The position numbers and the translations under genes were made by a program. A model generated the notes under the pieces. That model saw only the letters and a list, made by a program, of their open reading frames with translations. It was not told the DNA's origin and made no database searches. Positions 9,312 to 63,626 of a stretch of DNA of 64,000 bases are shown piece by piece. Location: assembly GCA_002716355.1 (NCBI GenBank), contig PBAU01000002.1:22411-86410 (forward strand), given 5' to 3'. Position 1 is the first letter of the stretch; each line of letters starts with the position of its first letter. Source of the stretch: a bacterium. GTDB taxonomy: Bacteria; UBP7; UBA6624.

Positions 9312-9374
9312 AGTTCACAAACCTCCAAAAAAATAGTTACTCTATTAGATTATAGGGATATATTTGTTTTCTGG

Positions 9375-10266: not shown

Positions 10267-10277
10267 TTAATATTGCT

Positions 10278-10360
10278 GCCGGTGTGGCGGAATGGTAGAC
10301 GCGACGGACTTAAAATCCGTTGTCCGCAAGGACGTGGGGGTTCGAGTCCCTTCGCCGGCA
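10278..10360 (+). tRNA. tRNA-Leu, anticodon TAA (class II, long variable arm)
   Basis: 83-nt cloverleaf. The acceptor stem is GCCGGTG/CGCCGGC, the anticodon stem ACGGA/TCCGT with loop CTTAAAA, the long variable arm TGTCCGCAAGGACGT, and the T loop TTCGAGT. The discriminator is A. The gene is contiguous, with no intron. Confidence 0.85.
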
Positions 10361-10371
10361 TGCTTAATATT

Positions 10372-14965: not shown

Positions 14966-14991
14966 TATTTTTATTGTACCGGTTTTTAAAT

Positions 14992-16269: not shown

Positions 16270-16272
16270 TTC

Positions 16273-16563
16273 TTACTGCAGTGTAATTTTATTTATTTTT
16301 ATCTTTTGATTTGAAAGTTTTTCGATTATCGATTTTTTATTTTTGTTAAGTGTTTTTTTAATAATTGGGTGACTTTTTTTAACACTAACAAACAACTCTT
16401 GGTTTTTAAGGTTTTTTACCTCTGATTTTTTATAGGTTGGTTCTATTTTTTTTTTCCACACACCCCTAACCAACAAGAGTTCATTTAAGCCTGGACTGAT
16501 CTTATTGATTATTTTTTGAATTTCTTTTTTGGGTTTTATACTTTGTTTAAAAATATTTTTCAC
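16273..16563 (-). CDS. DUF721 / DciA-family small basic protein
   Basis: 96 aa and Lys-rich. The pattern LLLVRGVWKKKIEPTYKKSEVKNLKNQELFVSVKKSHPIIKKTL resembles the DUF721 core (W..ivG......t.....dg.L.V.v.s). Its position between dnaN and gyrB is typical for this family. Confidence 0.45.
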   Translation of the reverse strand: MKNIFKQSIKPKKEIQKIINKISPGLNELLLVRGVWKKKIEPTYKKSEVKNLKNQELFVSVKKSHPIIKKTLNKNKKSIIEKLSNQKIKINKITLQ

Positions 16564-17690: not shown

Positions 17691-17775
17691 AAAAGTTATT
17701 TTAAAGAATAAATAGGATATTTGTTATTTGATTAATTAAATTAATTTTTATAAAAAACTACTTCTACTACTATTG

Positions 17776-36803: not shown

Positions 36804-39664
36804 AACAAAACAAAGTAATTGATATGGGTTTGATTATTACTGAAACCTTTGCAGGTATTATGCAGAAAAATATTGCAAAAGCAGGAACTTTAAAAGATCT
36901 AGAAGCCAGTTTTTTAGAATATGAGGATGCTATTGGTTTAGATGCAAAAATATTTGTTAAAAGATATGCTATGAAGTTTTTATCAAATTGTGCTTTTATA
37001 AAAAAATGGGATGATGGTTGGGTTTTAGTTCCTCATAAGCTAAAAGCACACAAGCTAGCAAGAGAAATACTAGAAGAAAGCGGATCTTTTATGTTGGAAT
37101 CCAAAATAAGAAGCCAAGTTGCTAAGCGACTCGGACAGAAAGTTAGTGAGACAAAGTTATATCTAGATATAGATGATGATTTTTCATTGGCGGAAGGCTT
37201 AAGGCAGGAAGATCAAATAGGCAGAGGTGCCATTTGGGGTTTGTGTGAATGGGTTTTGATTAATAATTTAGCAAAAACCCTTATTGAATCCCGAGGTCCA
37301 ATGAAAGAAAAAAGAATCATCAGCACATTGATCGAGAATGATTTAGTTACACAGGAAAAACAACCTGTTTTTTGCCCGCAGATAGACAAGAGATTTATAG
37401 CTGAATCAGGTAATTCATGGGATGTAGGAAAGGCAAAAAAGCAACCCCTTCAGACACCTAAAACCGGAGCTTTGGAGACCAAGATAAGAGAGGAGATAAC
37501 AAGCAAGGTAGAAAGATTGCTGGAGAATCAGGCATCAGACAAGAGTTTTTCAAAACAGGAGATTACAACTGCCCTGATTGGTAGTGCAAAAAGTTCTAAA
37601 GGTTCTCATTACCAGGACATGCTGGACGAGATCCTTTCTGTTTTTGAGAAATCTAAAAAGATAACCAAGGTTCGATTCGAACTTAAAAACCCATATTGGA
37701 TTAAGTCTGAAAGCCTGCCAAAGATAGATGTAAAAAAATTAGATCTAATTTTTCCACTCCCATATTCCGAACATCAGCTTTTGGGAGACGATATATTTAA
37801 TGAAAATCTTTTTGCAAATCTCTCTGATCCAGCTTTGTATTGGTTGGACGGGGATTTTTCCGAACAGGGTTTTCCTGAGGTGGAGCCATTGTTTATTTTA
37901 ACTTTCAATGACTTTGTAAATGACGAGTTAAACTACATATCACAACCATTGGTTAATGCTATTCAGGCTTCATTGCTTGCATCTAATGAGTGGGGTGAAT
38001 TTGTTTTACAAACACCCGACAAGCAAGAGCTTTCTATTTTGATTAATTTTAAGCATCAAATAATTTCAGGTATGGCATCCTGGGTTAATGGCTATGCCCA
38101 ACCTGGTGATGTTTACAATTTCGAATATCTCGGATCATCTACTTTCAGGCTTGTAAAAAATAAAGAGATTAAAAATCCATCACTAGATGACGATGAACTA
38201 GAAAGATTACTCTCCTTACAGGCAGAGAGCAAACTAACACTCAAAAAACTTGTAATTGAAGTTTTAAAACATCACCCAGGTGGTTTAACCTTCAGCGGTA
38301 TATTTAATCGCTTAATGTTTATAAGAAGAATTTCAAGAAGATCTTTAATGAGTGAGTTGACAAAATTCTTTTGTTTTGATTGTAAAGATGATAAATGGAA
38401 ATATTATGAAAAAAGATCTGACCTAGGAGAAAAGTTTTCTGCTAGCTCTTTTCCAATTGCTGGTTTAAATACCAATTGTTGGATATTGCGTGAGGAAATG
38501 CAGCCCGAAGTTGGGGATTCATTGAATATGGTTTATGGGAAAGCAGCACATAATGATTTGTTTTGCATTGTTAATCCAAAAAATCAACTTACCAGTGTGT
38601 TTCGATTAGCCGTTAAAGGTAAAAAATGCACAATTCAAGATATTACAAGCTGTGAGCCAATGCCTTTAGATAATTTTGATATCCCAAAAGCAGGTCTGAA
38701 TCAGATTGAGAATTCAGTTTTTTGTGACATTAACGAAGAGCTTGAAAGGGAGGTTTTGGATTCCGAAGTTTACGCAGGAATTAAGCAGGCCTTCACGACA
38801 TTTGAACCTAATCCAAGTGTAAACCAGGAGGTTACAAGAAGCTTAGAGGAGCTAGAGAGTCTTTTGGAGGATTCTGGTTCCGTTAGTCCATTCGGTGGCT
38901 TGGCATGGCAACTTCAGCAAAAATTTACCTGGCAGGAATTTCAAAAAGTTTTAGACTCAAAGATTTATTCTCAAGAGCATGAGGACCGTTTGGATGCAGG
39001 CAAGTTTGCAAGCTGGATGGCGAAAAGACCAATAGCATGGGACTCCGAATCGATTGTTTATCCAGCTGGACATGGGGAATTGTCAATCTGCATTCTGGAA
39101 GCATTGATTTCCATAATGCAAAATGCTGATTACACCATAGAGGAAGATTCACTTAACATTAGAACAGCCCTTAATAGCGATTTTGTTTTTAACTGGAGCA
39201 AACTGTTGTCAGACCAAAGAAGAATCAAGAAGATTGTTGACATGGAAGATAGTTTTGAATTAGTTGAATTTTTATCTGGCTGGTTTAGACGAGTAGCCAA
39301 GATTATTGAACCTAGAAAATTAGAAAGTGTAATTAACAGGTTAAGTTTTCACCTGAAAGGTATCGGATCTGTCGATATTAGCGATAAGGATTTGCCAGAA
39401 TATTTAAAATCAGAAAAATCTTCCCTGACAGGTCTAAGTCTTTCTGGAGACAAGCAAGAAAAATCTGCAACTTTGTTTGCAGATTTTAGAGGATTTTCAA
39501 AAGCCAAGATTAAGAAAACATTAAGCCTAGCACCTTCAGTTCTTGTTGATGGGGGACTGCTTGTTTTTGTTTCATTTGAAAATCAAAAAGTAAACTTTAA
39601 AAATGGAAAGCTAGAGGACCAGATCTCAATGGGTTCAATAGTTGCTAAATCTTATATCGTTTAA
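36800..39664 (+). CDS. Large hypothetical cytoplasmic protein (954 aa)
   Basis: Uninterrupted ORF with a 4-nt overlap with the glycerate kinase gene. I saw no P-loop, nuclease or methyltransferase motifs. Several segments look like winged-helix/HARE-HTH modules (for example LAKTLIESRGPMKEKRIISTLIEN and LVIEVLKHHPGGLTFSGIFNRL). Confidence 0.5.
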   Translation: MKQNKVIDMGLIITETFAGIMQKNIAKAGTLKDLEASFLEYEDAIGLDAKIFVKRYAMKFLSNCAFIKKWDDGWVLVPHKLKAHKLAREILEESGSFMLESKIRSQVAKRLGQKVSETKLYLDIDDDFSLAEGLRQEDQIGRGAIWGLCEWVLINNLAKTLIESRGPMKEKRIISTLIENDLVTQEKQPVFCPQIDKRFIAESGNSWDVGKAKKQPLQTPKTGALETKIREEITSKVERLLENQASDKSFSKQEITTALIGSAKSSKGSHYQDMLDEILSVFEKSKKITKVRFELKNPYWIKSESLPKIDVKKLDLIFPLPYSEHQLLGDDIFNENLFANLSDPALYWLDGDFSEQGFPEVEPLFILTFNDFVNDELNYISQPLVNAIQASLLASNEWGEFVLQTPDKQELSILINFKHQIISGMASWVNGYAQPGDVYNFEYLGSSTFRLVKNKEIKNPSLDDDELERLLSLQAESKLTLKKLVIEVLKHHPGGLTFSGIFNRLMFIRRISRRSLMSELTKFFCFDCKDDKWKYYEKRSDLGEKFSASSFPIAGLNTNCWILREEMQPEVGDSLNMVYGKAAHNDLFCIVNPKNQLTSVFRLAVKGKKCTIQDITSCEPMPLDNFDIPKAGLNQIENSVFCDINEELEREVLDSEVYAGIKQAFTTFEPNPSVNQEVTRSLEELESLLEDSGSVSPFGGLAWQLQQKFTWQEFQKVLDSKIYSQEHEDRLDAGKFASWMAKRPIAWDSESIVYPAGHGELSICILEALISIMQNADYTIEEDSLNIRTALNSDFVFNWSKLLSDQRRIKKIVDMEDSFELVEFLSGWFRRVAKIIEPRKLESVINRLSFHLKGIGSVDISDKDLPEYLKSEKSSLTGLSLSGDKQEKSATLFADFRGFSKAKIKKTLSLAPSVLVDGGLLVFVSFENQKVNFKNGKLEDQISMGSIVAKSYIV

Positions 39665-53196: not shown

Positions 53197-53224
53197 TGTG
53201 GAAAATTTTATACTATGCTAAGTT

Positions 53225-54025
53225 ATGTTTTTTCTAATGATGTTGTTAATGAAACCATGCCTCGGGCATGATCAGCATTGTGACAAAAGATACGACGAGC
53301 TTTCTTACCTTGTTACGCATAATGCGATGTCGACATCAGAAGATAGATGGCTTTTCCCCAACCAGGATCGAGGTCTCATTGCTCAGCTGAACGATGGCGT
53401 TAGAGGCTTGTCGTGGGACATCTACGAGCATAATCAGGAGGTTTATCTTTGCCATGGTTATTGCTGGCTTGGAAAAAGGAAATTAATGCATGACCTTGTT
53501 GAACTCAAAGGTTGGCTAGATGATAACCCCAGAGAGATAGTCTCGATTTTTTTTGAAAGCTATGTCGGGAAGAAGCCGGTTGTCGAGCTTTTTGAGCAGT
53601 CTGGAATGATTAGCTATGTTCACCATCAAGCCCTTGAGCAAGATTGGCCATCCATAATTGATATGATCGACAGCGGAAAAAGGGTTGTTGTTTTCACAAG
53701 TCGGGAAGGCGGTATTGACGACTGGTACCATGATGCCTGGAGGTATGTTTGGGATACAGATTTTTCATACAAAAGCATCGATGACTTTTCATGCTCAAGG
53801 CTCAGGGGCCCAAAAGACCTTTCAGGTCTTTACAGCATAAATCATTTTTTGACAAACCCACTTGCCTCAAAAACACTTGCCTCAAAAGCAAACCCGTCTG
53901 TTTACAAAAGAGCTGAGAGCTGTTGGGTAAAGACTGGGCAAAGGCCCAATTTTATTTTTGTTGATTTTTATTCGGTCGGAAACACCTTGGAGGCGGTAAG
54001 AAAATTAAACTTGTTACATTTTTAA
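53225..54025 (+). CDS. PLC-like phosphodiesterase (PI-PLC X-domain-like) protein
   Basis: LSYLVTHNAMS...GVRGLSWDIY...LCHG resembles the PI-PLC-like catalytic TIM barrel. It lies 7 nt upstream of the PhoU-fusion regulator gene. Confidence 0.4.
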   Translation: MFFLMMLLMKPCLGHDQHCDKRYDELSYLVTHNAMSTSEDRWLFPNQDRGLIAQLNDGVRGLSWDIYEHNQEVYLCHGYCWLGKRKLMHDLVELKGWLDDNPREIVSIFFESYVGKKPVVELFEQSGMISYVHHQALEQDWPSIIDMIDSGKRVVVFTSREGGIDDWYHDAWRYVWDTDFSYKSIDDFSCSRLRGPKDLSGLYSINHFLTNPLASKTLASKANPSVYKRAESCWVKTGQRPNFIFVDFYSVGNTLEAVRKLNLLHF

Positions 54026-54032
54026 AACAAGT

Positions 54033-55001
54033 TTGAATGCACATAACAAATATACAATTGAGAAGATGATGACAGAGGATCGTACAAACAAGGTTCATTT
54101 AAACGTTATCAGGTTAGGCAAGCTGGTTGTTTTTGCGTTAAAAAAAGCTCTTAAGGGTAGCACCTTTAACATAGATGCTTTTCTTGCAAAATGCAGAGCA
54201 AGAGAGACTGAAATCAACCTGTTAGAGATGGAAATTGAACAGGATCTCCAGACTTTAATGAGACCAGAGCTGGAAGATAAAGATTGTCGTCACTTTACAG
54301 CGTTGTTGAAAATCAATAATGACCTTGAGAGGATTGGCGATTATGCCATGGCGATAGCTAAATATCTTGTTGATGTTGACATGTCAGAAACGGTGAAAAT
54401 TGAATCCAAATTTAAAAAATTATCAAAAGCATCTATAGAGATGCTTGAAAGATCCGTTAAGGCAATAGAGCTTGAAGATATCAACCTAGCCAAGCAGGTT
54501 ATTCGTGATGACGATTATGTTGATAAATTGAACAAGGCAATAATCAAGATTCTTTTAAGCAGTAAAAATCCAGATATGGCTTCGGTTGTTTCGTTGGTTA
54601 ATTTGTGTAGAAGATTGGAGAGGACAGCAGATCATGCAACCAACATAGCAGAAGATTTGGTTTTTTGGATAGAGGGTGATGTTTTGAGGCATCCCACAAA
54701 AAAAAGATCCTTTATGTTTAATGAGATTGAAATATATCCAAACAGCAGAGAGATTAAGATTTCAGAAAAGGTCCATCTTTCTAAAAGTGAATGGGAGATA
54801 TTCATACACCTTATAGAAAGATCTCCAGACGGTGTTTCTAGAGAGGATCTTATGAAAAATGCTTTAGGCTACGACTCTTCTGTTGAAACTCGAACTATCG
54901 ATCAACACGTGGTTAGATTGCGAAAAAAACTAGGCCACAAAAAAACACTTTTGAAATCTATAGCTGGATTCGGTTACAAAGTGGTTAATTCAAAGAATTA
55001 A
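54033..55001 (+). CDS. PhoU domain fused to an OmpR/PhoB-type winged-helix DNA-binding domain (no receiver domain)
   Basis: Residues 1-220 hold two PhoU repeats (NNDLERIGDYAMAIAK; CRRLERTADHATNIAEDLVFWIEGD). Residues ~227-318 read LSKSEWEIFIHLIERSPDGVSREDLMKNALGYDSSVETRTIDQHVVRLRKKLG...IAGFGYKV, which is the trans_reg_C pattern (Lt.kEf.lL..L....G.v.sRe.L......vetRtvDvhi.rLRkKl...tvrG.GY). Confidence 0.8.
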   Translation: MNAHNKYTIEKMMTEDRTNKVHLNVIRLGKLVVFALKKALKGSTFNIDAFLAKCRARETEINLLEMEIEQDLQTLMRPELEDKDCRHFTALLKINNDLERIGDYAMAIAKYLVDVDMSETVKIESKFKKLSKASIEMLERSVKAIELEDINLAKQVIRDDDYVDKLNKAIIKILLSSKNPDMASVVSLVNLCRRLERTADHATNIAEDLVFWIEGDVLRHPTKKRSFMFNEIEIYPNSREIKISEKVHLSKSEWEIFIHLIERSPDGVSREDLMKNALGYDSSVETRTIDQHVVRLRKKLGHKKTLLKSIAGFGYKVVNSKN

Positions 55002-55089
55002 AACAAATTTGTTACAAGTTTTTAAAAAATCACAAAGAATACTATTTAAGATTTCAACTTAAATCCAAAAAGGAGGATTTTATATAAAA

Positions 55090-55974
55090 ATGAAATTTAA
55101 ATTTTCAAGCTTTTTTATATTGTTAGTTTTAGTAGTTACCAGTTGTGCAAGGCCGCAGGATTCTGAAGGAAATGCCGCAGGAAGTAGTTCCTCGGGAAGC
55201 GAGCAAAGCATACAGGTGACAGGCTCTGACACCATGGTTAACTTAGGTCAAGCATGGGCTGAAGAATATACAAAAACGAACCCCAACGCATATATTGCTG
55301 TTGGTGGCGGAGGCTCTGGTGTTGGGATCGCTGCCTTGATGAATGGAACTGCTGATCTCGCAAATTCATCCAGAGCAATTAAGGACAAAGAGATCTCAAA
55401 GGCAAACGAACTTGGCTTCGGTATCAAGGAGTATATTGTTGGTTGGGATGGGCTTGCTGTTGTCGTTCACCCAGATAATCCAGTTAACCAATTGTCAATT
55501 TTGCAAATCGCAGAAATTTTTACTGCCAAAATTACAAACTGGAAAGAGGTTGGTGGTGATGATTTAGAGATTGTTTTGTTGTCACGAGAGGTAAATAGTG
55601 GAACACATGTTTACTTCAAAGAAAATGTCGTTGGATCTTTAGGTAAGGGTACTGAATTCAGCGAAGAGGCGTTATTGATGCCAAGTAGCCAAGCACTTGC
55701 TGATGAGGTAACAAATAATATTGGCGCAATTGGCTATTATGGCATGGGTTATTTGTCACCATCACAAAAGCCAATTGATGTATCTGTTGATGGGGTTGTT
55801 TTTGTTCCACCAACTATAGAAAATGTTCTTAATAAAACATATCCAATTGCGAGACCCCTACACATGTTTTCAAGAGATAACATTTCTGCAGCAGCAAAAG
55901 CTTATATTGAGTGGATAATGGGAGAGGGGGGCCAGGCTGTTGTTGCAGCACAGGATTTTGTCCCCTTGAGCTGA
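55090..55974 (+). CDS. pstS: Phosphate ABC transporter substrate-binding lipoprotein
   Basis: Lipobox VVTSC, then GSDTMVNLGQAWAEEY, GGGSGVG and SREVNSGTH. AGGAGGA lies upstream of the ATG. Confidence 0.9.
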   Translation: MKFKFSSFFILLVLVVTSCARPQDSEGNAAGSSSSGSEQSIQVTGSDTMVNLGQAWAEEYTKTNPNAYIAVGGGGSGVGIAALMNGTADLANSSRAIKDKEISKANELGFGIKEYIVGWDGLAVVVHPDNPVNQLSILQIAEIFTAKITNWKEVGGDDLEIVLLSREVNSGTHVYFKENVVGSLGKGTEFSEEALLMPSSQALADEVTNNIGAIGYYGMGYLSPSQKPIDVSVDGVVFVPPTIENVLNKTYPIARPLHMFSRDNISAAAKAYIEWIMGEGGQAVVAAQDFVPLS

Positions 55975-56005: not shown

Positions 56006-56917
56006 GTGAAAAATATAAAATTAAAAAAGCATAAAACAGAGACTTTCAAACAGCCTCTGTCTGAAAAAATAACAGAGGCATGCTTGCGTTTTGCAGCATG
56101 GCTATGCATCTTTTTTATTGCCTGCATTCTTTATTTTTTAGTAAAAGAAAGTGGCGGGGTTTTTTTTAGTGACATTTTTACTATTACAGGTAAATTTTGG
56201 AGACCAATCAGTGAACCTCCAGATTTTGGTGTTTGGGTATTGCTTGCAGGCAGTTTGGCAGTAACGTTAACAGCATCTCTAATCGCAGTGCCCCTAGGGA
56301 TTTGTGCAGCTATTTTTATCGGCGAACTGCTGCCACAGAAATTTAGAGAATTTTTGAAAGTTATAGTTGAATTTCTAGCAGCAATACCAAGTGTTGTTAT
56401 TGGGTTCTTGGGCATGATTATTCTTGCACCATACATCAAGGAAGCTTTTGACCTAAAAACAGGCTTAACGGCTTTTTCGGCAGCATTGATGCTTGCATGG
56501 ATGGCAATGCCGACAATAGTCAGTTTAACTGAGGATGCTCTCAGAAGTGTACCTGATACTTTAAGAGATGGGGCTCTTGCTCTTGGTGCTACCAAATGGC
56601 AAATGATCACAAGGGTGCTTTTGCCAACAGCAAAACCAGGCATACTTGCTGCAGCAATGCTTGGTGTTGGAAGGGTGATAGGTGAAACAATGGCGGTTTT
56701 AATGATTAGTGGTAATTCTGCCAGGATACCAAGTAGCATCATGGAGCCAGTCAGAACTCTCACTGCAACAATTGCTGCAGAAATGGGAGAAACAGTCAAG
56801 GGCGATGAGCATTATCAAGCCCTTTTTGGCTTGGGTGTTGTTTTATTTATTATCACATTGCTAATTAATACTGCAGCAGATAGGTTTATTAATAAAAAAT
56901 ACACAGAAGAATCATGA
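56006..56917 (+). CDS. pstC: Phosphate ABC transporter permease PstC
   Basis: Polytopic permease with the EAA-type loop (DALRSVPDTLRDGALALGATKWQ). Confidence 0.9.
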   Translation: MKNIKLKKHKTETFKQPLSEKITEACLRFAAWLCIFFIACILYFLVKESGGVFFSDIFTITGKFWRPISEPPDFGVWVLLAGSLAVTLTASLIAVPLGICAAIFIGELLPQKFREFLKVIVEFLAAIPSVVIGFLGMIILAPYIKEAFDLKTGLTAFSAALMLAWMAMPTIVSLTEDALRSVPDTLRDGALALGATKWQMITRVLLPTAKPGILAAAMLGVGRVIGETMAVLMISGNSARIPSSIMEPVRTLTATIAAEMGETVKGDEHYQALFGLGVVLFIITLLINTAADRFINKKYTEES

Positions 56918-57774
56918 ACTTTAAAAAACAAAATCCAATCAACCAGCAAAAAAGGGCCACTTTTGGCTTGGGGCTTATAACAGCCATTGTGGTTATTCCG
57001 GTTTTATTGATACTAGGTGTTGTTTTTGTTAAGGGTATTTCAGTTATAGATTGGAACTTCCTGACCACTGAACCCACCAATGGTTTAAGAGAGGGCGGGG
57101 TTTTCCCGGCCATAGTTGGAACATTGATCCTGGTTGTTGGGGCCGTGGTTTGGAGTGTCCCTTTTGGTGTGGCTACTGCAATTTATCTTGTTGAATATTC
57201 TCCAAGAAGCCGAGCAGCTAACTTGGTTAGGTTAGCAATCTTAAATTTAGCAGGAGTCCCCAGTGTTGTTTACGGGTTGTTTGGCTTGGGGGTGTTTGTC
57301 ATAGCTTTAAAATTTGGCGCAAGCATTTTAGCGGGAACTTTAACCCTTGCTCTGATGGGTTTGCCAGTAATAGTCACATCAACTGCAGAAGCGTTAAAAG
57401 CTGTTCCTGATAGATTCAGAGAAGCAAGCTTGGCATTGGGTGCTAGCAAATGGCAAACAACTAGGCATGTTGTTCTTCCAAACTCCATACAGGGAATTTT
57501 GACCGGAATAATTTTAGAAATTAGTCGTGCTGGCGGAGAGACTGCACCAATTTTGTTCACTGTAGCAGCTTTTTATTTACCAAGATTGCCACAAAGTATC
57601 TTTGATCAGGTCATGGCGCTTCCAATGCATCTTTTTGCAATCTCAACACAGGTGCCTAACATAGGCTTGGATGTGAGATATGCAGTTGCCTTAACGTTGT
57701 TGTTTTTAGTTTTAGGCATCAATGCAGTTGCAATTTCCATAAGAGCAAAAATTAGGAAAAACAGAATATGGTAA
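56914..57774 (+). CDS. pstA: Phosphate ABC transporter permease PstA
   Basis: Polytopic permease with EALKAVPDRFREASLALGASKWQ. There is a 4-nt overlap with pstC. Confidence 0.9.
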   Translation: MNFKKQNPINQQKRATFGLGLITAIVVIPVLLILGVVFVKGISVIDWNFLTTEPTNGLREGGVFPAIVGTLILVVGAVVWSVPFGVATAIYLVEYSPRSRAANLVRLAILNLAGVPSVVYGLFGLGVFVIALKFGASILAGTLTLALMGLPVIVTSTAEALKAVPDRFREASLALGASKWQTTRHVVLPNSIQGILTGIILEISRAGGETAPILFTVAAFYLPRLPQSIFDQVMALPMHLFAISTQVPNIGLDVRYAVALTLLFLVLGINAVAISIRAKIRKNRIW

Positions 57775-58517
57775 AAGAAATCATTATTAAATCTTTGTCG
57801 GTTTCATATGGAAACAAACAGGCAATAAGAAATTTGTCTTTATCGGTTGAAAAAAATGAAATATTAGGAATCATTGGTCCTACTACTTCAGGAAAAACAA
57901 CCTTACTTACAGTTTTAAACAGAATGATCGACACAATACCGTCAGTTGCGATTTCCGGCAATGTTTCCATGGGTGATATTGATGTTTTGACAACACCAAA
58001 CATCCATAGTCTCAGGAGGTCTGTTGGGATGATTTTTGCCCTTCCGGTCGCTTTGCCCATGACTATTAGGGAAAATGTTGAATATGGCCCAAAGATGGCT
58101 GGAGAGGCAAAAGGAGAGTTGGAGACAAGGGTTAAAGAAAGTCTTGTGCAGGCTGGATTATGGGATGAGGTGCACGACAGGTTGGACACCCCGGCATTAA
58201 AGCTTTCAGGCGGCCAGCAACAAAGGCTTTGCATCGCAAGGGCTTTAGCATTAAAGCCAAAGGTTTTATTGCTTGATGAGCCTTGTTCGGGGCTTGATCC
58301 AATCTCAACATCCAGAATAGAGGATACACTGAGTCAATTAAAAAATGACATGACTATCATCTTGGTCACAAACAACCCCCATCAAGCTGCTCGTGTTGCT
58401 CATCGAACAGCTTTTATGCTTAAGGGCGAGCTTATCGAGCTTGCTGACACAGACACACTGTTCACAAATCCTGCAGACAATAGAACAAAAGAATACATTG
58501 AGGGTAAATTTGGATAA
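57768..58517 (+). CDS. PstB-like ATPase with substituted Q-loop and H-loop
   Basis: Walker A GPTTSGKTT, signature LSGGQQQRL and Walker B LLLDEP are all present. The Q-loop reads VGMIFALP (Gln to Ala) and the H-loop reads ILVTNNPHQAARV (TH to TN). Confidence 0.85.
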   Translation: MVKEIIIKSLSVSYGNKQAIRNLSLSVEKNEILGIIGPTTSGKTTLLTVLNRMIDTIPSVAISGNVSMGDIDVLTTPNIHSLRRSVGMIFALPVALPMTIRENVEYGPKMAGEAKGELETRVKESLVQAGLWDEVHDRLDTPALKLSGGQQQRLCIARALALKPKVLLLDEPCSGLDPISTSRIEDTLSQLKNDMTIILVTNNPHQAARVAHRTAFMLKGELIELADTDTLFTNPADNRTKEYIEGKFG

Positions 58518-59281
58518 TGGCAAAAACTCTAATTAAATCTGAAAAATTCAATTTGTGGTATGGTGACTTTCAAGCTTTAATTGATATAGATCTCGACATA
58601 CCAGAAAATCAAGTTACAGCTGTTGTGGGTCCTTCAGGATGCGGAAAAAGCACTTTTGTTCGTTGTATCAACAGGCTAAACGATCAAATAAACACAGTTA
58701 GCACCAAGGGTTCTATTTTTATTGATGGGACAGACATTTACCAATATACGGCTGATGAGGTTGTTGGGCTTAGGCGATCTGTCGGGATGGTTTTTCAGAG
58801 ACCCAACCCCTTTCCGCTTTCTGTTTTTGAAAACGTTGCTTTTGGCTTAAAGACAAACCCCATGGTTCCTGATCATCAAACCATAAAAAAGGAAGTCAAT
58901 AAAGCGCTGCAAGCGGTAGGTTTGCTTGAGGACCTAGACGGTAACCTTGCGAGACCAGGAACCAGTCTTTCCCTGGAACAGCAGCAAAGATTATGTATTG
59001 CAAGATGCCTGCCAACAAGGCCCAAAATATTGCTTATGGACGAACCTTGTTCAGCATTGGATCCAAGCGATACCGATAAGGTAGAGGAGCTCATAAGGGA
59101 ATTAAGGAAAGACTATACCGTTGTGATAGTGACCCACAACCTACAACAAGCTGGCAGAATTTCTGATCAATCTGTATTATTCCATTTGGGCAAAATTATT
59201 GAAGCAGCACCAACAGCAGATTTCTTCCAGAACCCGAAAGAAAAAAGAACAAGAGACTTTATTACAGGTCGTTATGGTTAG
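58517..59281 (+). CDS. pstB: Phosphate ABC transporter ATP-binding protein PstB (canonical catalytic motifs, altered signature motif)
   Basis: Walker A GPSGCGKST, Q-loop VGMVFQRPNPFP, Walker B LLMDEP and H-loop VIVTHNLQQAGR are canonical. The signature motif reads LSLEQQQRL instead of LSGGQ. Confidence 0.9.
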   Translation: MAKTLIKSEKFNLWYGDFQALIDIDLDIPENQVTAVVGPSGCGKSTFVRCINRLNDQINTVSTKGSIFIDGTDIYQYTADEVVGLRRSVGMVFQRPNPFPLSVFENVAFGLKTNPMVPDHQTIKKEVNKALQAVGLLEDLDGNLARPGTSLSLEQQQRLCIARCLPTRPKILLMDEPCSALDPSDTDKVEELIRELRKDYTVVIVTHNLQQAGRISDQSVLFHLGKIIEAAPTADFFQNPKEKRTRDFITGRYG

Positions 59282-59290
59282 GAGTTAAAT

Positions 59291-59938
59291 ATGACTAAAA
59301 GATTAACAAAACTTATTGATAAAATCAAAGTAAAAACCTTGGCAATGGCTCAAGATGTTTGCAAATCAATGGATGATGCAATGGAGGCAATTTTAAATTC
59401 TAGCGATGATAAATATCAAGCAATGAAACAACGAGAAGATAATATTGATTCGCTAGAAGTTGAGATCGAAGAATCCATACTTGGCACCATTGCTGTCCAT
59501 CAACCTGTTGCAGATGATTTAAGAATTCTTGCAGCAATGTTGAAGATTACAAATGACTTAGAAAGAATTGGTGATTATGCGATCAAAATTGCTCAAAGGG
59601 GCAAGGATATTGACGCCAACTTGATCAAGAGCATCAAAGCTCCTTTGTCTAAATTGGGAACATCTTCAATCCAGATGATTAAAGATGCAGTACAGGCTTT
59701 AGACGCAGGAGATGCAGATTTAGCCCAGAAGGTTAGAGATGCTGATGACCAGGTGGATGAGCTTAACAAATCCCTCATAAAGGAATTATCCAAAATCGAT
59801 GATGATGACTTTGAGTCCTTGGTCGCACTGGTTTCAATATCCAGAAGATTCGAAAGAGCTGCTGATCATGCAACAAACATAGCAGAAGATGTTTTGTTCT
59901 GGCTTGAAGGCAGGATATTCAGACACGGTGAAACCTAA
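59291..59938 (+). CDS. phoU: Phosphate signalling complex protein PhoU
   Basis: 215 aa with two PhoU repeats (TNDLERIGDYAIKIAQ; SRRFERAADHATNIAEDVLFWLEG). Confidence 0.9.
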   Translation: MTKRLTKLIDKIKVKTLAMAQDVCKSMDDAMEAILNSSDDKYQAMKQREDNIDSLEVEIEESILGTIAVHQPVADDLRILAAMLKITNDLERIGDYAIKIAQRGKDIDANLIKSIKAPLSKLGTSSIQMIKDAVQALDAGDADLAQKVRDADDQVDELNKSLIKELSKIDDDDFESLVALVSISRRFERAADHATNIAEDVLFWLEGRIFRHGET

Positions 59939-59966: not shown

Positions 59967-60854
59967 GTGAAAAAAGTTCGTTATTTTCAAAGACCATCAG
60001 AGTATTGGAAGGATCATGTTTTCCCAATGCGAAAAATGGATTTGTTGAAAAAACGTATCGAAGAATCGTTTTCAATTGATTTTGTTGAGCCTGACAGTTT
60101 GCCAGAAGGTTCAATTGCACTCACGCATCACCGCAATTTTATAAATCGTATACATTCATATTTTGATAACCCCGAAGCTTCTTATGGTGAGTTTGAAGCA
60201 AGATGTGACAGTTGGGTTTTTGAGAACGAATGCAAGGCGGTTGCCGGCACTTTGTCTGCATGCAGGGATGCCTTGCTGCAGGGTTGGGGTTTTAATATTG
60301 GCGGCGGATTGCACCATTCTTTCCCTGATCATGGAGAGGGTTTCTGTATCATTAACGATATTGCAATTTCAATTAACCAACTTATCAAAGAGGGCAATAT
60401 CCATAATGCAGCTGTAGTCGATCTTGACGTGCATCAAGGCAATGGTACTGCTGTTTGTTTCCAAAATAGCCCAAATGTAAAAACAATCTCATTGCATCAA
60501 CAGCATAATTATCCATCCTGGAAACCTAAATCAGATTTAGACATTGGTTTAGACGACGGAACAGGTGATAGCGCTTATTTGCAGCATCTATCAACTGCAC
60601 TTGATTGGCTTTCAACACAAGATAAACCTGACTTGGTTTTATTTTTGGCAGGTGCTGACCCTTATCGAAAAGACCAGCTTGGAGGGCTTGCGCTCACAAA
60701 AGCGGGCTTAAGCTCAAGAGATAGGCTTGTAATAGAGTGGTGCAAAAATAAAAATTGCCCAGTAGCGATTGTTTTGGCTGGTGGCTACGCTAAGGATGTA
60801 AATGACGTTGTTGATATACACTTTAATACATTCAAATGTTTAATGGAGGTTTAA
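59967..60854 (+). CDS. Histone deacetylase-family (arginase-fold) deacetylase
   Basis: Contains GGGLHHSFPDHGEGFCIINDIAI and DLDVHQGNGT. Confidence 0.8.
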   Translation: MKKVRYFQRPSEYWKDHVFPMRKMDLLKKRIEESFSIDFVEPDSLPEGSIALTHHRNFINRIHSYFDNPEASYGEFEARCDSWVFENECKAVAGTLSACRDALLQGWGFNIGGGLHHSFPDHGEGFCIINDIAISINQLIKEGNIHNAAVVDLDVHQGNGTAVCFQNSPNVKTISLHQQHNYPSWKPKSDLDIGLDDGTGDSAYLQHLSTALDWLSTQDKPDLVLFLAGADPYRKDQLGGLALTKAGLSSRDRLVIEWCKNKNCPVAIVLAGGYAKDVNDVVDIHFNTFKCLMEV

Positions 60855-60855
60855 G

Positions 60856-61683
60856 GTGATGTTGTTAGGTTTGTTATTTATATCTAATCTTTTTAATTCA
60901 GACTGCACAGATGCAGAAAAATCCTTTAGGGGTTATTTAGCACATGAGTCAAAAAGCGAAATCACGATAGATGGAAAGTTGGATGATCTCTCATGGAGAA
61001 AAGCACTATGGTCGGATTGTTTTGTAGACATAGAGGGATCACTTCAGCCTAATCCAAAATATAAAACGAGATTAAAAATGTTATGGGATGAGAATTACTT
61101 TTACATCGCTGCACTAATGGAGGATCCTCATATTTGGGCCGTAAGCACAGAACGAGATTCTTATATTTGGCAAAATGAAGGGGATTTTGAGGTTTTTATA
61201 GATCCCGACAGTAATTCTTTGGACTATATTGAAATTGAAATTAACGCCATGGGAACAGAATGGGATCTTCTTATGGATAAACCGTATAGCGAAGGTGGCG
61301 TTAATGATGATAGTTGGGATATTCAAGGCCTTAAATCAGCAGTTACTATTGATGGAACCTTAAACAACCCTGAAGATATAGATAAAAAATGGATAGTTGA
61401 AATTGCAATTCCCTGGAAAGGTATAAACCAAACCGCAAATGTTTCTATGCCGCCAAAAAATAATGATTCTTGGAGAATTAATTTTTCTAGAGTATGGTGG
61501 GATCACGAAGTGATTGATGGCCGTTATGTCAAGATTGGAGAGGCTTTTGAAGGCCTGGAGTCAAATTGGGTTTGGTCTGCACAGGGTGTGATCAATATGC
61601 ATGATCCTAGCCTTTGGGGCTTTGTAACTTTTAAAAAATTTGAAAAATCTCAAAATCGCATACTTGATTTTTTGTCTAGGTGA
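60856..61683 (+). CDS. Carbohydrate-binding family 9-like exported protein
   Basis: ITIDGKLDDLSWRKA...MLWDENYFYIAALMEDPHIWA...DFEVFIDPD...YIEIEINAMGTEWDL is typical of the CBM9-like fold. There is an N-terminal hydrophobic leader. Confidence 0.55.
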   Translation: MMLLGLLFISNLFNSDCTDAEKSFRGYLAHESKSEITIDGKLDDLSWRKALWSDCFVDIEGSLQPNPKYKTRLKMLWDENYFYIAALMEDPHIWAVSTERDSYIWQNEGDFEVFIDPDSNSLDYIEIEINAMGTEWDLLMDKPYSEGGVNDDSWDIQGLKSAVTIDGTLNNPEDIDKKWIVEIAIPWKGINQTANVSMPPKNNDSWRINFSRVWWDHEVIDGRYVKIGEAFEGLESNWVWSAQGVINMHDPSLWGFVTFKKFEKSQNRILDFLSR

Positions 61684-61688
61684 ATTGA

Positions 61689-63626
61689 ATGAATGCTGGT
61701 CCTCTTGATTGGTTGATCATATTTGTCACTTGGGGTATTTTGGTTTTATCGGTTCCAATTGCCAAAAAATACATGAGGAGCGTTGCTGACTACCTTTCTG
61801 CAGGAAGATCGGCAGGCAGATATATTTTATCTGTTGCTCAAGGTATAGCTGCGCTTGGTGCAATTTCTGTTGTAGCGATGATGGAACAGAATTATGTTGC
61901 CGGTTTTTCAATGTCTTGGTGGGGGCTAACTATGAATCTTGTTGTTCTCGCTGTCACCGCTTCAGGTTGGGTCATTTATCGTTTTAGGGAAACCAGGTGT
62001 TTAACATTAGCAGAATTTTTTGAACGAAGATACAGTAAAAAATTTCGTATTTTTTCAGGGCTTATAGCTTTCATTTCCGGAATTGTTAATTTCGGAATCT
62101 TCCCCGCAGTTGGAGCAAGGTTCTTTTTGAATTATCTTGGATTGCCAGGGCATCTCAGCCTGCTTGGCTTTGATATCCCCACTTTTGCAATCCTGATGCT
62201 TTTTCTTCTTGGGACATCTTTGTATTTTGTTTTTTCTGGAGGGCATGTTGCAGTCACAATTGCAGATTTCATCCAAGGGGTCTTCAGCAACGTGGTTTTC
62301 ATTTGGATGATTTTGTTTTTCTTATTTAATGTTTCCTGGGATCAGATTTTTTATTCATTAAATCAGGCACCAGAAAATGCATCATTGATCAACCCATTTA
62401 AAACAAGCCAGGTCGAGGATTTTAACCTAGGCTTCTTTTTGATTGGTATATTGATTTACATTTATGGAACCATGTCTTGGCAAGGTACGCAAGCGTATAA
62501 CGCCTCGGCCAAAAACGCACATGAAGCTAAAATGGGCAGCCTGTTAGGAAATTGGCGAAATATCCCCCAAAATCTTTTCATGCTTTTCATACCAATAATT
62601 GCATATACCGTTTTGCATCATCCGGACTTTAGCCTTCAGGCCGATTTTGTAAATTCAACCTTATCTAATGAGGAAAACAATGCAGTTGTGAATCAATTAA
62701 GAGTTCCTGCTGTATTGATATCAATGCTACCTCCTGGTCTAATGGGGGCTTTTGCCGCAGTGATGTTGGCTGCTTTTATTAGCACTCATGACACTTACCT
62801 TCACTCATGGGGTAGCATCTTTGTTCAAGATGTATACATGCCCTTTCAAAAGAAACCTTTAACCCAAGAAAAACATTTAAAGATTTTAAAGTGGTCCACG
62901 ATCGGTGTCGCTATTTTCATATTCATCTTTTCACTAATCTTTCAACAGAGTGAATACATCCTTTTGTTTTTTGCAATTACTGGTGCTATCTTCTTTGGTG
63001 GGTCCGGAGCTGTTCTGATAGGTGGTCTTTATTGGAACAAAGGCACAACCAAGGGAGCATGGTGGGCAATGTCATTAGGTGCGTCGCTATCAGTTTTCGG
63101 CATCTTCGGTGAAAGGTACATTGAGGCTTGGCCTGACTGGTTGAATGGGCAGGTTATGACGGGTATTGTTATTTTGTGCTGTATTGTCACATATGTGCTT
63201 GTGTCTTTAAACTCAAAACAAGCCGGTATAGATTTAAATAAACTTCTTTATAGAGGAAAACATGAAACAGAAAAAGAAAAAAAATTAATACAATTGCAAG
63301 TTCCGAGAGGGCTAAAAGCAATAGGCATCACTGAAGAGTTTACAAAATCTGATCGACGACTTTACTATATTACTTATACCTGGGTTATTGGTTGGTTCCT
63401 GACATTTCTAATTGGAACAATATATAACTTAAACAAGACTGTAGTCGATGATAGCTGGATTGCCTTTTGGAAGACTTATATGTGGATAAATGTTGTTGTA
63501 GCTATATTGGTTACGATTTGGTTTACATACAATGGTTTTAATGATCTAAAAGGCATGTTGAAGGAATTGAAAAGAAAAAAGATAGACATTAAGGATAACG
63601 GTTTTATTTCAGATGACAACATTTAA
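61689..63626 (+). CDS. Sodium:solute symporter family transporter
   Basis: 645 aa with 13 or more hydrophobic segments and an SSF-like region (GGSGAVLIGGLYWNKGTTKGAWWAM). Confidence 0.6.
   Translation: MNAGPLDWLIIFVTWGILVLSVPIAKKYMRSVADYLSAGRSAGRYILSVAQGIAALGAISVVAMMEQNYVAGFSMSWWGLTMNLVVLAVTASGWVIYRFRETRCLTLAEFFERRYSKKFRIFSGLIAFISGIVNFGIFPAVGARFFLNYLGLPGHLSLLGFDIPTFAILMLFLLGTSLYFVFSGGHVAVTIADFIQGVFSNVVFIWMILFFLFNVSWDQIFYSLNQAPENASLINPFKTSQVEDFNLGFFLIGILIYIYGTMSWQGTQAYNASAKNAHEAKMGSLLGNWRNIPQNLFMLFIPIIAYTVLHHPDFSLQADFVNSTLSNEENNAVVNQLRVPAVLISMLPPGLMGAFAAVMLAAFISTHDTYLHSWGSIFVQDVYMPFQKKPLTQEKHLKILKWSTIGVAIFIFIFSLIFQQSEYILLFFAITGAIFFGGSGAVLIGGLYWNKGTTKGAWWAMSLGASLSVFGIFGERYIEAWPDWLNGQVMTGIVILCCIVTYVLVSLNSKQAGIDLNKLLYRGKHETEKEKKLIQLQVPRGLKAIGITEEFTKSDRRLYYITYTWVIGWFLTFLIGTIYNLNKTVVDDSWIAFWKTYMWINVVVAILVTIWFTYNGFNDLKGMLKELKRKKIDIKDNGFISDDNI

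What the first reader, a model, noticed from the sequence alone, without database searches (positions are those of the whole stretch)
54033..55001. One-polypeptide PhoU::PhoB-effector fusion, a possible receiver-less phosphate regulator
The N-terminal 220 aa are a complete two-repeat PhoU. Both metal-binding helices match the canonical PhoU encoded at 59291 (NNDLERIGDYA / TNDLERIGDYA and RLERTADHATNIAEDL / RFERAADHATNIAEDV). After a short basic linker (RHPTKKRSF), the C-terminal ~95 aa are an unmistakable OmpR/PhoB winged-helix output domain. No receiver domain is present, and no phoR or phoB is visible in the window. The gene sits 88 nt upstream of pstS and 7 nt downstream of a PLC-like phosphodiesterase gene. 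In the textbook system PhoU relays the PstB transport status to PhoR, which then controls PhoB. Fusing PhoU directly to the DNA-binding module would short-circuit that two-component step. I am not aware of this architecture having been characterised.
Basis: partly seen in the sequence, partly recalled or inferred. Interest (0 to 1): 0.75.

Follow-up and report, generated by a model that had tools for sequence, protein, structure and literature searches.

The report
PhoU fused to PhoB-type DNA-binding domain
An uncultured marine bacterium encodes, just upstream of its phosphate-uptake operon, one protein that joins the phosphate-signalling adaptor PhoU to the DNA-binding half of the phosphate regulator PhoB without the usual phosphorylation domain; the fusion is real, conserved, very rare and unstudied, and probably senses phosphate status and switches genes directly.

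Summary
ORF 54033-55001 (+) encodes two PhoU repeats (Pfam 4e-30) followed by an OmpR/PhoB winged helix (Trans_reg_C, 3e-16). It has no receiver domain.

It is not an assembly artefact. The same continuous frame occurs in four other marine MAG species (96% and 73-74% identity) with identical synteny, in a 42-member sequence cluster, and in a GC-rich relative at 35% identity. Both halves are under purifying selection.

The architecture is very rare: three receiver-less clusters were found among 1.84 billion representative proteins. It arose at least twice. A second lineage (L008) carries it in the phoU slot after pstSCAB. A third (L009) carries PhoU + receiver + wHTH in which the phospho-acceptor Asp and the conserved Lys are replaced.

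The 88-nt spacer before pstS is 80-85% conserved, against 27-53% at four-fold sites. It holds hexamers in 11-nt phase, and one species has an exact extra 11-nt unit.

Best reading: a one-component phosphate regulator in which a PhoU paralog takes the place of the receiver. Not shown: DNA binding, the signal, or absence of phoBR from the rest of the genome (none in about 84 kb). I found no paper describing this fusion.

The parts
53225..54025 (+). Upstream gene (266 aa), probably co-transcribed with the fusion gene. Possible PI-PLC-X-like phosphodiesterase.
   Evidence: ORF. Only a sub-threshold PI-PLC-X hit (E 0.011) and no PDB sequence match. The same position is conserved in L003 and L004.
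54013..54029 (+). GTTACA-N5-AAAACA, two hexamers 11 nt apart, overlapping the stop codon of the upstream gene. Possible autoregulatory site; weak evidence.
   Evidence: Read. Present in the window and L001 only, absent in L002-L004, so it is not supported by comparison.
54033..55001 (+). PhoU::wHTH fusion ORF (322 aa from TTG). Likely true start ATG 54066 (311 aa) or 54069.
   Evidence: NCBI MBG97609.1 'hypothetical protein', 311 aa.
54084..54680 (+). PhoU module (residues ~18-216): two PhoU repeats forming a six-helix bundle, with both metal-site motifs (DLERIGD and ERTAD) intact.
   Evidence: Pfam and NCBIfam. Invariant columns D97, E99, D103, E196, D200. AF2 and Foldseek against PhoU structures. 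40% identical to the operon PhoU.
54681..54710 (+). Linker (GDVLRHPTKKRSF region). Contains an A8 run at about 54696-54703.
   Evidence: AF2 shows no regular secondary structure at residues 215-226. The frame is continuous in all lineages, with different nucleotides.
54711..54983 (+). OmpR/PhoB-type winged helix-turn-helix (residues ~227-317). Recognition helix TRTIDQHVVRLRKKL.
   Evidence: Trans_reg_C 3e-16. Best NCBIfam matches are PhoB models. PDB sequence and fold matches to PhoB, CovR, ArlR and WalR DNA-binding domains. Alignment with E. coli PhoB.
55000..55038 (+). Conserved candidate operator: hexamers in 11-nt phase, AAAACA (55000), GTTACA (55011), TTAAAA (55022), and a weaker CAAAGA (55033).
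   Evidence: The spacer is 80-85% identical between species whose four-fold sites are 27-53% identical. L003 has an exact extra 11-nt unit TTTTTACAACT. The function is inferred.
55047..55052 (+). Candidate -10 element TAAGAT (TATGAT or TAGGAT in the other species). No -35 consensus 17 nt upstream; the third hexamer lies there instead.
   Evidence: Alignment A2. The consensus promoter scan found no complete sigma-70 promoter in the spacer. Inferred.
55090..55974 (+). pstS (phosphate-binding protein).
   Evidence: PBP_like_2, 1.9e-41.
56006..57774 (+). pstC (56006-56917) and pstA (56914-57774) permeases.
   Evidence: ORFs. BPD_transp_1 on record for the 286-aa ORF; the upstream ORF is cut at the contig end in L010 and has no Pfam record there, so pstC is named from its position and its orthologs.
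57768..59281 (+). Two tandem pstB ATPase genes (57768-58517 and 58517-59281).
   Evidence: ABC_tran hits. NCBI names them 'phosphate ABC transporter ATP-binding protein'.
59291..59938 (+). Canonical stand-alone phoU (215 aa).
   Evidence: PhoU 2.6e-38. TIGR02135 162.4 bits, above its cut-off.

Best explanation
The gene encodes a one-component, phosphate-responsive transcription factor. A diverged paralog of the lineage's own PhoU (a six-helix, metal-binding bundle) sits where the receiver domain of a PhoB-type regulator would be, joined by a linker of about 12 residues to a PhoB-like winged helix.

Proposed mechanism (inferred):
1. The PhoU module reads phosphate status, either by docking on the PstB1/PstB2 ATPases of the adjacent transporter or by binding metal-phosphate directly.
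2. This sets whether the protein is held at the transporter or kept inactive, or is free as a PhoU-mediated dimer.
3. In the free state the two winged helices bind the 11-nt-phased hexamers that overlap the -35 region of the pstS promoter. They then control pstSCAB1B2-phoU as PhoB~P does at a Pho box, most likely by activation.

No phosphotransfer is needed. Shown here: the architecture, its conservation, its context, its recurrence, and selection on the pstS upstream DNA. Inferred: DNA binding, the signal, the sign of regulation, and independence from PhoR/PhoB.
For: - Domains and fold.
- The fusion is real and selected. The continuous frame is found in L001-L004, L007 and L008 with different junction nucleotides, and in a 42-member cluster seen on many contigs. 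Amino-acid identity is 74% against 40% at third codon positions, and the wHTH half is 80% conserved.
- Both PhoU metal motifs are invariant.
- wHTH residues equivalent to PhoB R193, T194, H198, R201 and R203 are kept. The a2-a3 loop has the same length as in PhoB, with G185, V190 and E191 kept (alignment; residue roles are from my knowledge of PDB 1GXP and of PhoB genetics).
- Context: the gene lies directly upstream of pstS-C-A-B1-B2-phoU in five species-level loci.
- Independent recurrence next to pst: L008 has pstSCAB followed by PhoU::wHTH in the phoU slot, and its PhoU part is 55-64% identical to ordinary PhoUs. L009 has pstSCAB followed by PhoU+REC+wHTH, with N at the D53 position and Q at the K105 position.
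- The pstS upstream spacer is 80-85% conserved against 27-53% at four-fold sites. It carries 11-nt-phased hexamers, and L003 has an exact one-unit (11 nt) insertion.
- The L008 pstS promoter has CTAACAATT / CTCACATTC / CTAACAATT in 11-nt phase, 9 nt before TATGGT.
- PHO boxes are built of 11-nt direct repeat units (PMC2275107).
- PhoU proteins homodimerise (PMC11705898). E. coli and Salmonella PhoU link Pst to PhoR (PMC4423584, PMC9239213).
- No receiver or histidine kinase in about 84 kb around the locus.
Against: - There is no experimental evidence of any kind.
- The rest of the genome could not be searched, so a canonical phoBR may exist.
- In the window itself the hexamers are degenerate and AT-rich (AAAACA, GTTACA, TTAAAA). 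The repeat finder reports no direct repeat there. A phased-hexamer scan is not enriched over shuffles: 120 hits against about 100.
- The wing Arg (PhoB R219) and R200 are not kept.
- The PhoU module scores below the NCBIfam equivalog cut-off (122 against 130), so it is a diverged paralog whose partners may differ.
- S. aureus PhoU homologs do not detectably bind PhoR or transporter proteins (PMC11705898), so PstB docking is not universal.
- The context of the GC-rich member (P0004) is unknown: its contig is 1.3 kb, and no pstS starts within 125 nt downstream.
Confidence: 0.6

Rival explanations
1. The protein is an accessory regulator working beside a canonical PhoR/PhoB encoded elsewhere in the genome. 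One possibility is a DNA-tethered PhoU that represses or fine-tunes pst when phosphate is plentiful, by competing with PhoB for the Pho box. Another is a feedback brake. In neither case does it replace the two-component system.
For: - PhoU is classically a negative regulator (PMC4423584, PMC9239213).
- The operon still encodes a normal PhoU, so the standard signalling parts are kept.
- Most bacteria have phoBR, and only about 84 kb of this genome was inspected.
- A site overlapping the -35 region is equally compatible with repression.
Against: - The L009 protein keeps a receiver but has lost D53 and K105. This points to PhoU input replacing phosphorylation, not adding to it.
- In L008 the fusion occupies the only phoU slot on the contig.
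- The a2-a3 loop that PhoB uses to contact sigma-70 has the same length, with three of its key residues kept.
- The candidate promoter has no -35 consensus, which is typical of activator-dependent Pho promoters.
Confidence: 0.27
2. The C-terminal winged helix no longer binds DNA. It serves as a protein-interaction module, for example contacting RNA polymerase, a PhoB partner or PstB, so the protein is essentially a modified PhoU.
For: PhoB R200 and the wing R219 are replaced. No statistically supported repeated site exists in the window itself.
Against: - The recognition helix is the most conserved part of the C-terminal half: TRTIDQH..LRKKLG is nearly invariant from 35% to 97% overall identity.
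- R193, T194, H198, R201 and R203 equivalents are kept.
- The fold is a complete effector domain.
- The neighbouring non-coding DNA is under strong selection.
Confidence: 0.08
3. The fusion is an artefact (mis-assembly, or a frameshift at the A8 run joining two genes) or a decaying pseudogene.
For: An A8 homopolymer lies in the linker.
Against: - The same open frame occurs in independent assemblies from different samples and pipelines (Tara, ENA, JGI, Logan, NCBI).
- It also occurs in lineages with no homopolymer at the junction (L007, L008).
- Both halves show purifying selection.
- The other two frames are closed around the junction.
Confidence: 0.02

Closest known systems
PhoU (phosphate signalling complex protein; TIGR02135 / PF01895), e.g. 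E. coli, Salmonella and P. aeruginosa PhoU (PDB 4Q25, 1T72, 1XWM)
   Same: It has the two PhoU repeats, the six-helix bundle and both E/D-x-x-x-D metal motifs. It is encoded in a pst locus. It is closest to the same lineage's own PhoU (40% identity).
   Different: It carries a C-terminal DNA-binding domain. It sits upstream of pstS instead of after pstB. It scores below the equivalog cut-off. It coexists with a normal PhoU in the same operon.
PhoB / PhoP (OmpR-family phosphate response regulators; TIGR02154; PDB 1GXP)
   Same: The C-terminal effector domain has the same fold. The best family matches are PhoB models. Most base-contacting residues of the recognition helix are kept. The candidate target has 11-nt-phased repeats at the pstS promoter, like a Pho box.
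   Different: It has no receiver domain and no phospho-acceptor Asp, so it cannot be a response regulator. PhoB R200 and R219 equivalents are replaced.
PhoU + pseudo-receiver + wHTH protein P0229 (L009, GCA_965178085.1), found here and uncharacterised
   Same: PhoU is fused N-terminally to a PhoB-type output, and the gene is in a pst locus.
   Different: It retains a receiver fold, with N at the D53 position and Q at the K105 position. It occupies the phoU slot after pstB. Its lineage is unrelated (25-28% identity).
Receiver-less OmpR-family one-component regulators (ToxR/CadC-type membrane regulators; SARP/AfsR-type)
   Same: An OmpR-type winged helix is driven by a non-receiver input domain in the same polypeptide.
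   Different: In those families the wHTH is N-terminal and is followed by a transmembrane or periplasmic sensor, or by BTAD/NB-ARC/TPR domains. Here the wHTH is C-terminal, as in response regulators, and the input is a cytoplasmic PhoU bundle.
Archaeal SpoVT/AbrB-PhoU proteins (e.g. T. kodakarensis TK2245, listed as chromosome-associated in PMC7325993)
   Same: A PhoU domain is combined with a DNA-binding domain in one protein.
   Different: They have a different DNA-binding fold, placed at the N-terminus. They are archaeal, and I know of no established link to Pho-box-type regulation.
Transporter-coupled control of transcription factors (MalK-MalT, PtsG-Mlc); analogy recalled from my own knowledge, not tested
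   Same: The proposed logic is the same: the idle or active state of a transporter component controls the availability of a transcription factor.
   Different: Those involve separate proteins of unrelated families. No such interaction has been shown here.

Membership tests
PhoU (PF01895 / TIGR02135) | Two PhoU repeats forming a six-helix bundle | tested here: met
   Pfam PhoU in 2 stretches, 104.5 bits. AF2 gives six helices. Foldseek TM 0.84-0.89 to 1t8b, 4q25, 1xwm and 2i0m.
PhoU (PF01895 / TIGR02135) | Conserved E/D-x-x-x-D metal-binding motif in each repeat | tested here: met
   D97, E99, D103 and E196, D200 are invariant across the fusions and 40 PhoUs.
PhoU (PF01895 / TIGR02135) | Score at or above the NCBIfam equivalog cut-off (130.25 bits) | tested here: not met
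   122.3 bits. The operon's own PhoU scores 162.4.
PhoU (PF01895 / TIGR02135) | Single-domain protein encoded after pstB | tested here: not met
   It has an extra wHTH domain and lies upstream of pstS. The canonical phoU is at 59291.
PhoU (PF01895 / TIGR02135) | Binds PstB and PhoR | not testable with these tools
   Needs two-hybrid or pull-down assays.
OmpR/PhoB-family response regulator | N-terminal receiver domain with a phospho-acceptor Asp | tested here: not met
   No Response_reg hit. tblastn with PhoB matches only residues 141-224.
OmpR/PhoB-family response regulator | C-terminal winged-helix effector domain (Trans_reg_C) | tested here: met
   59.6 bits against a cut-off of 26.2. Fold match to 1gxq and 1gxp.
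PhoB ortholog (TIGR02154 / NF053854) | Full-length score above the equivalog cut-off | tested here: not met
   46.9 against 296.2 bits, and 56.7 against 270 bits. Only the effector part matches, but these are the best-scoring response-regulator models.
PhoB ortholog (TIGR02154 / NF053854) | Binds tandem 11-nt direct repeats (Pho box) replacing the -35 of pst promoters | tested here: inconclusive
   Conserved phased hexamers and an 11-nt unit insertion in L003. However, the repeats in the window are degenerate and a scan is not enriched. Binding itself was not tested.
ToxR/CadC-type membrane one-component regulators | N-terminal wHTH followed by a transmembrane helix and a periplasmic sensor | tested here: not met
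   The wHTH is C-terminal. All of residues 1-216 belong to the PhoU helical bundle.
SARP / AfsR-type regulators | wHTH followed by a BTAD domain | tested here: not met
   No BTAD hit in Pfam.
Archaeal SpoVT/AbrB-PhoU regulators | N-terminal SpoVT/AbrB domain | tested here: not met
   No such Pfam hit.

The most novel reading that the evidence does not exclude
This marine clade has dispensed with PhoR/PhoB altogether. A PhoU paralog is itself the phosphate sensor and drives pst transcription directly through a fused PhoB output domain. That would be a complete Pho signalling pathway in one polypeptide. It would show that PhoU is a genuine signal-sensing module, and it would give a minimal, reconstitutable system (protein + DNA, with or without PstB) for working out what PhoU actually senses.
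Probability: 0.3. Interest if true: 0.8.

Novelty: new variant of a known kind. Interest (0 to 1): 0.65.

Why it matters
How the Pst transporter and PhoU tell PhoR that phosphate is plentiful is still unresolved, even in E. coli and Salmonella (PMC4423584, PMC9239213).

A natural fusion of PhoU to the PhoB output domain acts as a 'Rosetta stone': it argues that PhoU can control a PhoB-type output without kinase chemistry. This fusion recurs independently, and in one case sits beside a receiver that has lost its phospho-acceptor Asp.

If the protein binds DNA in a Pi-, metal- or PstB-dependent way, PhoU's input could be read out with a simple DNA-binding or reporter assay.

The protein also matters for ocean microbiology. 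It is common in Tara Oceans assemblies, from organisms living under phosphate scarcity, and is currently annotated as 'hypothetical protein' or plain 'phosphate transport system protein'.

Tried and rejected
- A homolog search with the wHTH alone (residues 221-322) returned one 74-aa fragment, because of the word-index limit. The origin of the wHTH could therefore not be traced.
- A metagenome scan with the GC-rich member P0004 found no further members and no context. Its only contig is 1.3 kb.
- Motif scans of the window gave no usable regulon prediction:
  - The 16-mer TTACAASTTTTTAAAA has one exact hit, the pstS site itself. The 3-mismatch hits are mostly in coding DNA.
  - WTWACA-N5-WTWACA has no hit.
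  - An ad hoc three-hexamer score gives 120 hits against about 100 in shuffles, and its top hit is circular.
- The consensus promoter and terminator scan found no full sigma-70 promoter and no terminator in the fusion-pstS spacer. This fits either an activator-dependent promoter or read-through.
- Rfam found only three tRNAs in the window and no leader RNA before pstS.
- The divergent region upstream of the PLC-like gene shows a conserved GGAAAATTTTATAC block but no convincing phased repeats.
- Mapping of E. coli PhoU A147/R148 (the PhoR-PAS contact) was considered and dropped. The position is not conserved across phyla and my E. coli sequence was from memory.
- Artefact and pseudogene readings were rejected.
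- Whole-genome search for phoB/phoR was not possible.
Full report

Yes. ORF 54033..55001 on the + strand is open for 322 codons from a TTG.

- Pfam finds PhoU in two stretches (E 4e-30, 104.5 bits) and Trans_reg_C at residues 245-316 (E 3.1e-16, 59.6 bits). It finds nothing else, and in particular no Response_reg.
- NCBIfam phoU_full aligns residues 18-216 to model positions 7-210 of 212, at 122.3 bits, just under the 130.25 equivalog cut-off.
- The C-terminal ~95 residues match only the last ~95 positions of response-regulator models. The two best are PhoB models (56.7 and 46.9 bits; next is CseB at 42.7).
- PDB sequence search gives PhoU structures for residues 18-223 and effector domains of CovR, ArlR, WalR and PhoB for residues 227-320.
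- An AlphaFold2 model built on 45 sequences (pLDDT 88, pTM 0.71) shows six long helices, an unstructured stretch at 215-226, then four short strands, three helices and a terminal hairpin.
- Foldseek matches PhoU structures (target TM 0.84-0.89) and the PhoB effector domain (1gxq, 1gxp; TM 0.73-0.79). No solved chain spans both parts.

I make two corrections:

- The start is more likely ATG 54066 or 54069. NCBI's call is 311 aa, the 73-74% orthologs begin at the aligned Met, and the residues before it are not conserved in frame even in the 96% relative.
- The 'PLC-like' identity of the upstream gene rests on a sub-threshold PI-PLC-X hit only (E 0.011).

**2. Artefact or real gene?**

It is a real gene.

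- The exact protein is in public collections: NCBI MBG97609.1, 'hypothetical protein [bacterium]', on a 175-kb contig. It belongs to a 90% cluster of 42 sequences from Tara, ENA, JGI, Logan and NCBI assemblies.
- Four other species-representative MAGs carry it at 96% (L001) and 73-74% (L002-L004) identity.
- L003 and L004 were checked in full and have the same gene order: urocanase, 164-aa gene and M24 peptidase on the opposite strand, then the PLC-like gene, the fusion, pstS, pstC, pstA, pstB, pstB, phoU, an HDAC-like gene, a CBM9-like gene and an SSF transporter.
- A GC-rich relative (P0004; 35% identity; contig 68% GC) has the same architecture with a linker one residue longer.
- The junction is in frame in every lineage although the nucleotides differ: an A8 run here, A7 in L002/L003, none in L007/L008. 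The other two frames are closed.
- Between the window and L002-L004, amino-acid identity is 74% while third codon positions are 40-42% identical and four-fold sites 27-38% identical.
- In the comparison with P0002, the wHTH half is 80% conserved and the PhoU half 68%. Both halves are therefore under purifying selection.

**3. How common is the architecture?**

It is very rare.

- In the word-indexed search of 5.8 billion proteins, only four of the best 120 hits combine PF01895 and PF00486. All other listed hits are plain PhoU.
- An exhaustive profile search of 1.84 billion 50% representatives gave three receiver-less clusters: P0001 (this clade), P0004 and P0121. It also gave one PhoU+receiver+wHTH protein (P0229) among the best 150.
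- Very divergent fusions scoring below about 118 bits would have been missed.
- Seven literature searches aimed at this architecture (PhoU with winged helix, fusion, Trans_reg_C, one-component, AbrB, SpoVT, or 'PhoU domain' fused) found no description of it.

**4. Independent recurrences, always at pst loci**

- P0121 is a short gene call. The full ORF on L008 is 322 aa (8006-8974) and lies after pstS-pstC-pstA-pstB, in the phoU slot. No other phoU is on that 11-kb contig.
- The PhoU part of the L008 protein is 55-64% identical to ordinary PhoUs (named examples are from SAR324 and Nitrospinae) but only 28% identical to the window's. Only one more cluster of that type exists (P0358, 87%).
- In a neighbour-joining tree, the L008 type nests inside a canonical PhoU clade. 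The window fusion plus P0004 form the sister group of their own lineage's canonical PhoUs (the window PhoU, the L003/L004 PhoUs and P0017). The tree is crude, but it indicates at least two separate fusion events.
- P0229 (L009, a 164-kb contig of GCA_965178085.1) is PhoU + Response_reg + Trans_reg_C, again directly after pstSCAB.
This natural case, a PhoU-fused PhoB whose receiver can no longer be phosphorylated, fits PhoU input substituting for phosphotransfer.

**5. Origin of the two halves**

The best non-fusion relative of the PhoU module in the whole database is the PhoU encoded 4.3 kb downstream in the same operon: P0005 is the window's 59291 gene, at 40% identity. They share lineage-specific features (LERIGDYA, FW.EG) that differ from the general consensus (LERIGDLA, IY..EG). 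So the module is an old paralog of the lineage's own phoU.

The origin of the wHTH could not be traced, because the domain-only search failed. PhoB models are its best matches, by a modest margin.

**6. Is the winged helix likely to bind DNA?**

Aligned with E. coli PhoB, the equivalents of R193, T194, H198, R201 and R203 are kept: TRTIDQHVVRLRKKL against DRTVDVHIRRLRKAL. V197 is Q, R200 is V, and the wing R219 is A, P or G.

The loop between a2 and a3, which in PhoB contacts sigma-70, has the same length, with G185, V190 and E191 kept and W184 and D192 changed. The residue roles come from my knowledge of the 1GXP structure and of PhoB genetics; they are not from a tool.

The recognition helix is the most conserved segment of the C-terminal half across 35-97% overall identity.

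**7. A candidate operator**

- The 88-nt spacer between the fusion gene and pstS is 80-85% identical between the window and L002-L004, although four-fold sites of the flanking genes are only 27-53% identical. The spacer is therefore under selection.
- It contains hexamers in 11-nt phase: AAAACA (55000), GTTACA (55011; TTTACA in the other species), TTAAAA (55022), and a weaker fourth at 55033.
- These are followed by a conserved TA(A/T/G)GAT at 55047, with no -35 consensus at the expected distance; the third hexamer lies there instead.
- L003 carries an exact extra unit TTTTTACAACT, an insertion of precisely 11 nt.
- In the independent L008 locus, the pstS upstream region has CTAACAATT / CTCACATTC / CTAACAATT in 11-nt phase, 9 nt before TATGGT.
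- PHO boxes of PhoB/PhoP regulators are arrays of 11-nt direct repeat units (PMC2275107). From memory, the TT(A/T/C)ACA-N5 repeat of B. subtilis PhoP is similar.

Caveats:

- In the window the repeats are degenerate and AT-rich.
- The repeat finder reports none there.
- A phased-hexamer scan is no more frequent than in shuffles.
- The consensus scan finds neither a promoter nor a terminator in the spacer.

The operator reading therefore rests on conservation and on the 11-nt unit insertion, not on motif statistics.

**8. phoB and phoR**

tblastn with PhoB and with a receiver domain finds no receiver in the 64-kb window. Ten size-matched ORFs have unrelated domains. Precomputed Pfam annotation for about 84 kb (the window plus 10 kb on each side) lists no Response_reg or HisKA; the only HATPase_c hit is GyrB.

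This says nothing about the rest of the genome, which I could not reach.

**9. Mechanism**

The best-supported reading is a one-component phosphate regulator. A PhoU paralog stands where the receiver of PhoB would be and is connected by a response-regulator-like linker to a PhoB-type output domain.

Known facts used:

- PhoU bridges PstB and PhoR in enterobacteria (PMC4423584, PMC9239213).
- PhoU proteins homodimerise (PMC11705898).
- OmpR/PhoB regulators need dimerisation of their N-terminal domain to place two effector domains on tandem repeats.

Inference: the PhoU module provides the regulated dimerisation or sequestration step. It would respond to the state of the PstB1/PstB2 ATPases or to bound metal-phosphate, and the protein would then bind the phased hexamers at the pstS promoter. 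Activation seems more likely than repression, because the promoter lacks a -35 and the sigma-contact loop is preserved, but the sign is open.

The main rival is that it works beside a canonical PhoBR as a repressor or tuning device. A non-DNA-binding role is unlikely, and an artefact is excluded.

**10. Classification and novelty**

- It is not a PhoU equivalog: it scores below the cut-off, has an extra domain and sits in a different position.
- It is not a response regulator: it has no receiver.
- It does not match ToxR/CadC, SARP or archaeal AbrB-PhoU architectures.
- It is best described as a new variant of the one-component regulator idea, combining two well-known Pho modules in a way that appears undescribed.

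**11. Organism**

The source is an uncultured marine bacterium (38.5% GC). NCBI labels it only 'bacterium'. Sequences in the same 90% clusters as two of its housekeeping proteins (TatC and dihydrolipoyl dehydrogenase) are labelled Gemmatimonadetes/Gemmatimonadota bacterium. I did not verify that placement.

Noticed in passing
L009:10001-11470 (protein P0229): PhoU + receiver + wHTH in one 489-aa protein, directly after pstSCAB. The receiver has N at the PhoB D53 position and Q at the K105 position, so it is a pseudo-receiver. It looks like an intermediate form of the same idea in an unrelated, AT-rich lineage.
   Followed up: partly
L008:8006-8974: An independent PhoU::wHTH fusion occupies the phoU slot after pstSCAB. 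The public gene call (P0121, 277 aa) is truncated at the N-terminus. A hybrid PAS histidine kinase with a C-terminal receiver lies convergent just downstream (9070-11010, minus strand).
   Followed up: partly
window 54696-54703: There is an A8 run in the linker codons (ACA AAA AAA AGA), and an A7 run in L002/L003. A slip into one alternative frame would end after about 8 codons and give a PhoU-only product. This could simply reflect Lys codon bias in an AT-rich genome.
   Followed up: no
window 54013-54029: GTTACA-N5-AAAACA, two hexamers 11 nt apart, overlaps the stop codon of the upstream gene just before the fusion gene. It is present only in the window and L001, not in L002-L004.
   Followed up: partly
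window 57768-59281: There are two tandem pstB paralogs (249 and 254 aa) together with two PhoU-type proteins in one locus. Tandem pstB genes were shown to be non-equivalent in E. faecalis (PMC12096839). Whether each PhoU-type protein pairs with one PstB is unknown.
   Followed up: no
window 59967-63626 and L003, L004, L010: An HDAC-like deacetylase, a CBM9-like protein and an SSF-family transporter follow phoU in conserved order in all species. Further downstream in L010 lie GH130, GH38, gamma-glutamyl transpeptidase and an Exo_endo_phos family gene (L010 13412-14206).
   Followed up: no
window 12917-19086 (minus strand): gyrB (12917-14965), a dnaN-like gene (16560-17690) and a DnaA-like ATPase (17776-19086, with only a weak DnaA C-terminal hit) lie together, so the window probably lies near the replication origin.
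   Followed up: no
protein P0126 (from; not in the window): A 692-aa protein with an N-terminal signal-like segment and six tandem OmpR-type winged-helix domains, with no PhoU and no receiver. This is an odd architecture.
   Followed up: no
window 53197-53224 and the homologous regions of L002-L004: The divergent spacer between the M24 peptidase and the PLC-like gene is only 28 nt in the window and about 70 nt in L002-L004. All share a conserved GGAAAATTTTATAC block next to the peptidase start.
   Followed up: partly
window 7974-9311 (minus strand): An SLH-domain protein (445 aa) is present in this marine MAG. Several large neighbouring ORFs (e.g. 36800-39664, 954 aa) have no Pfam hit on record.
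   Followed up: no
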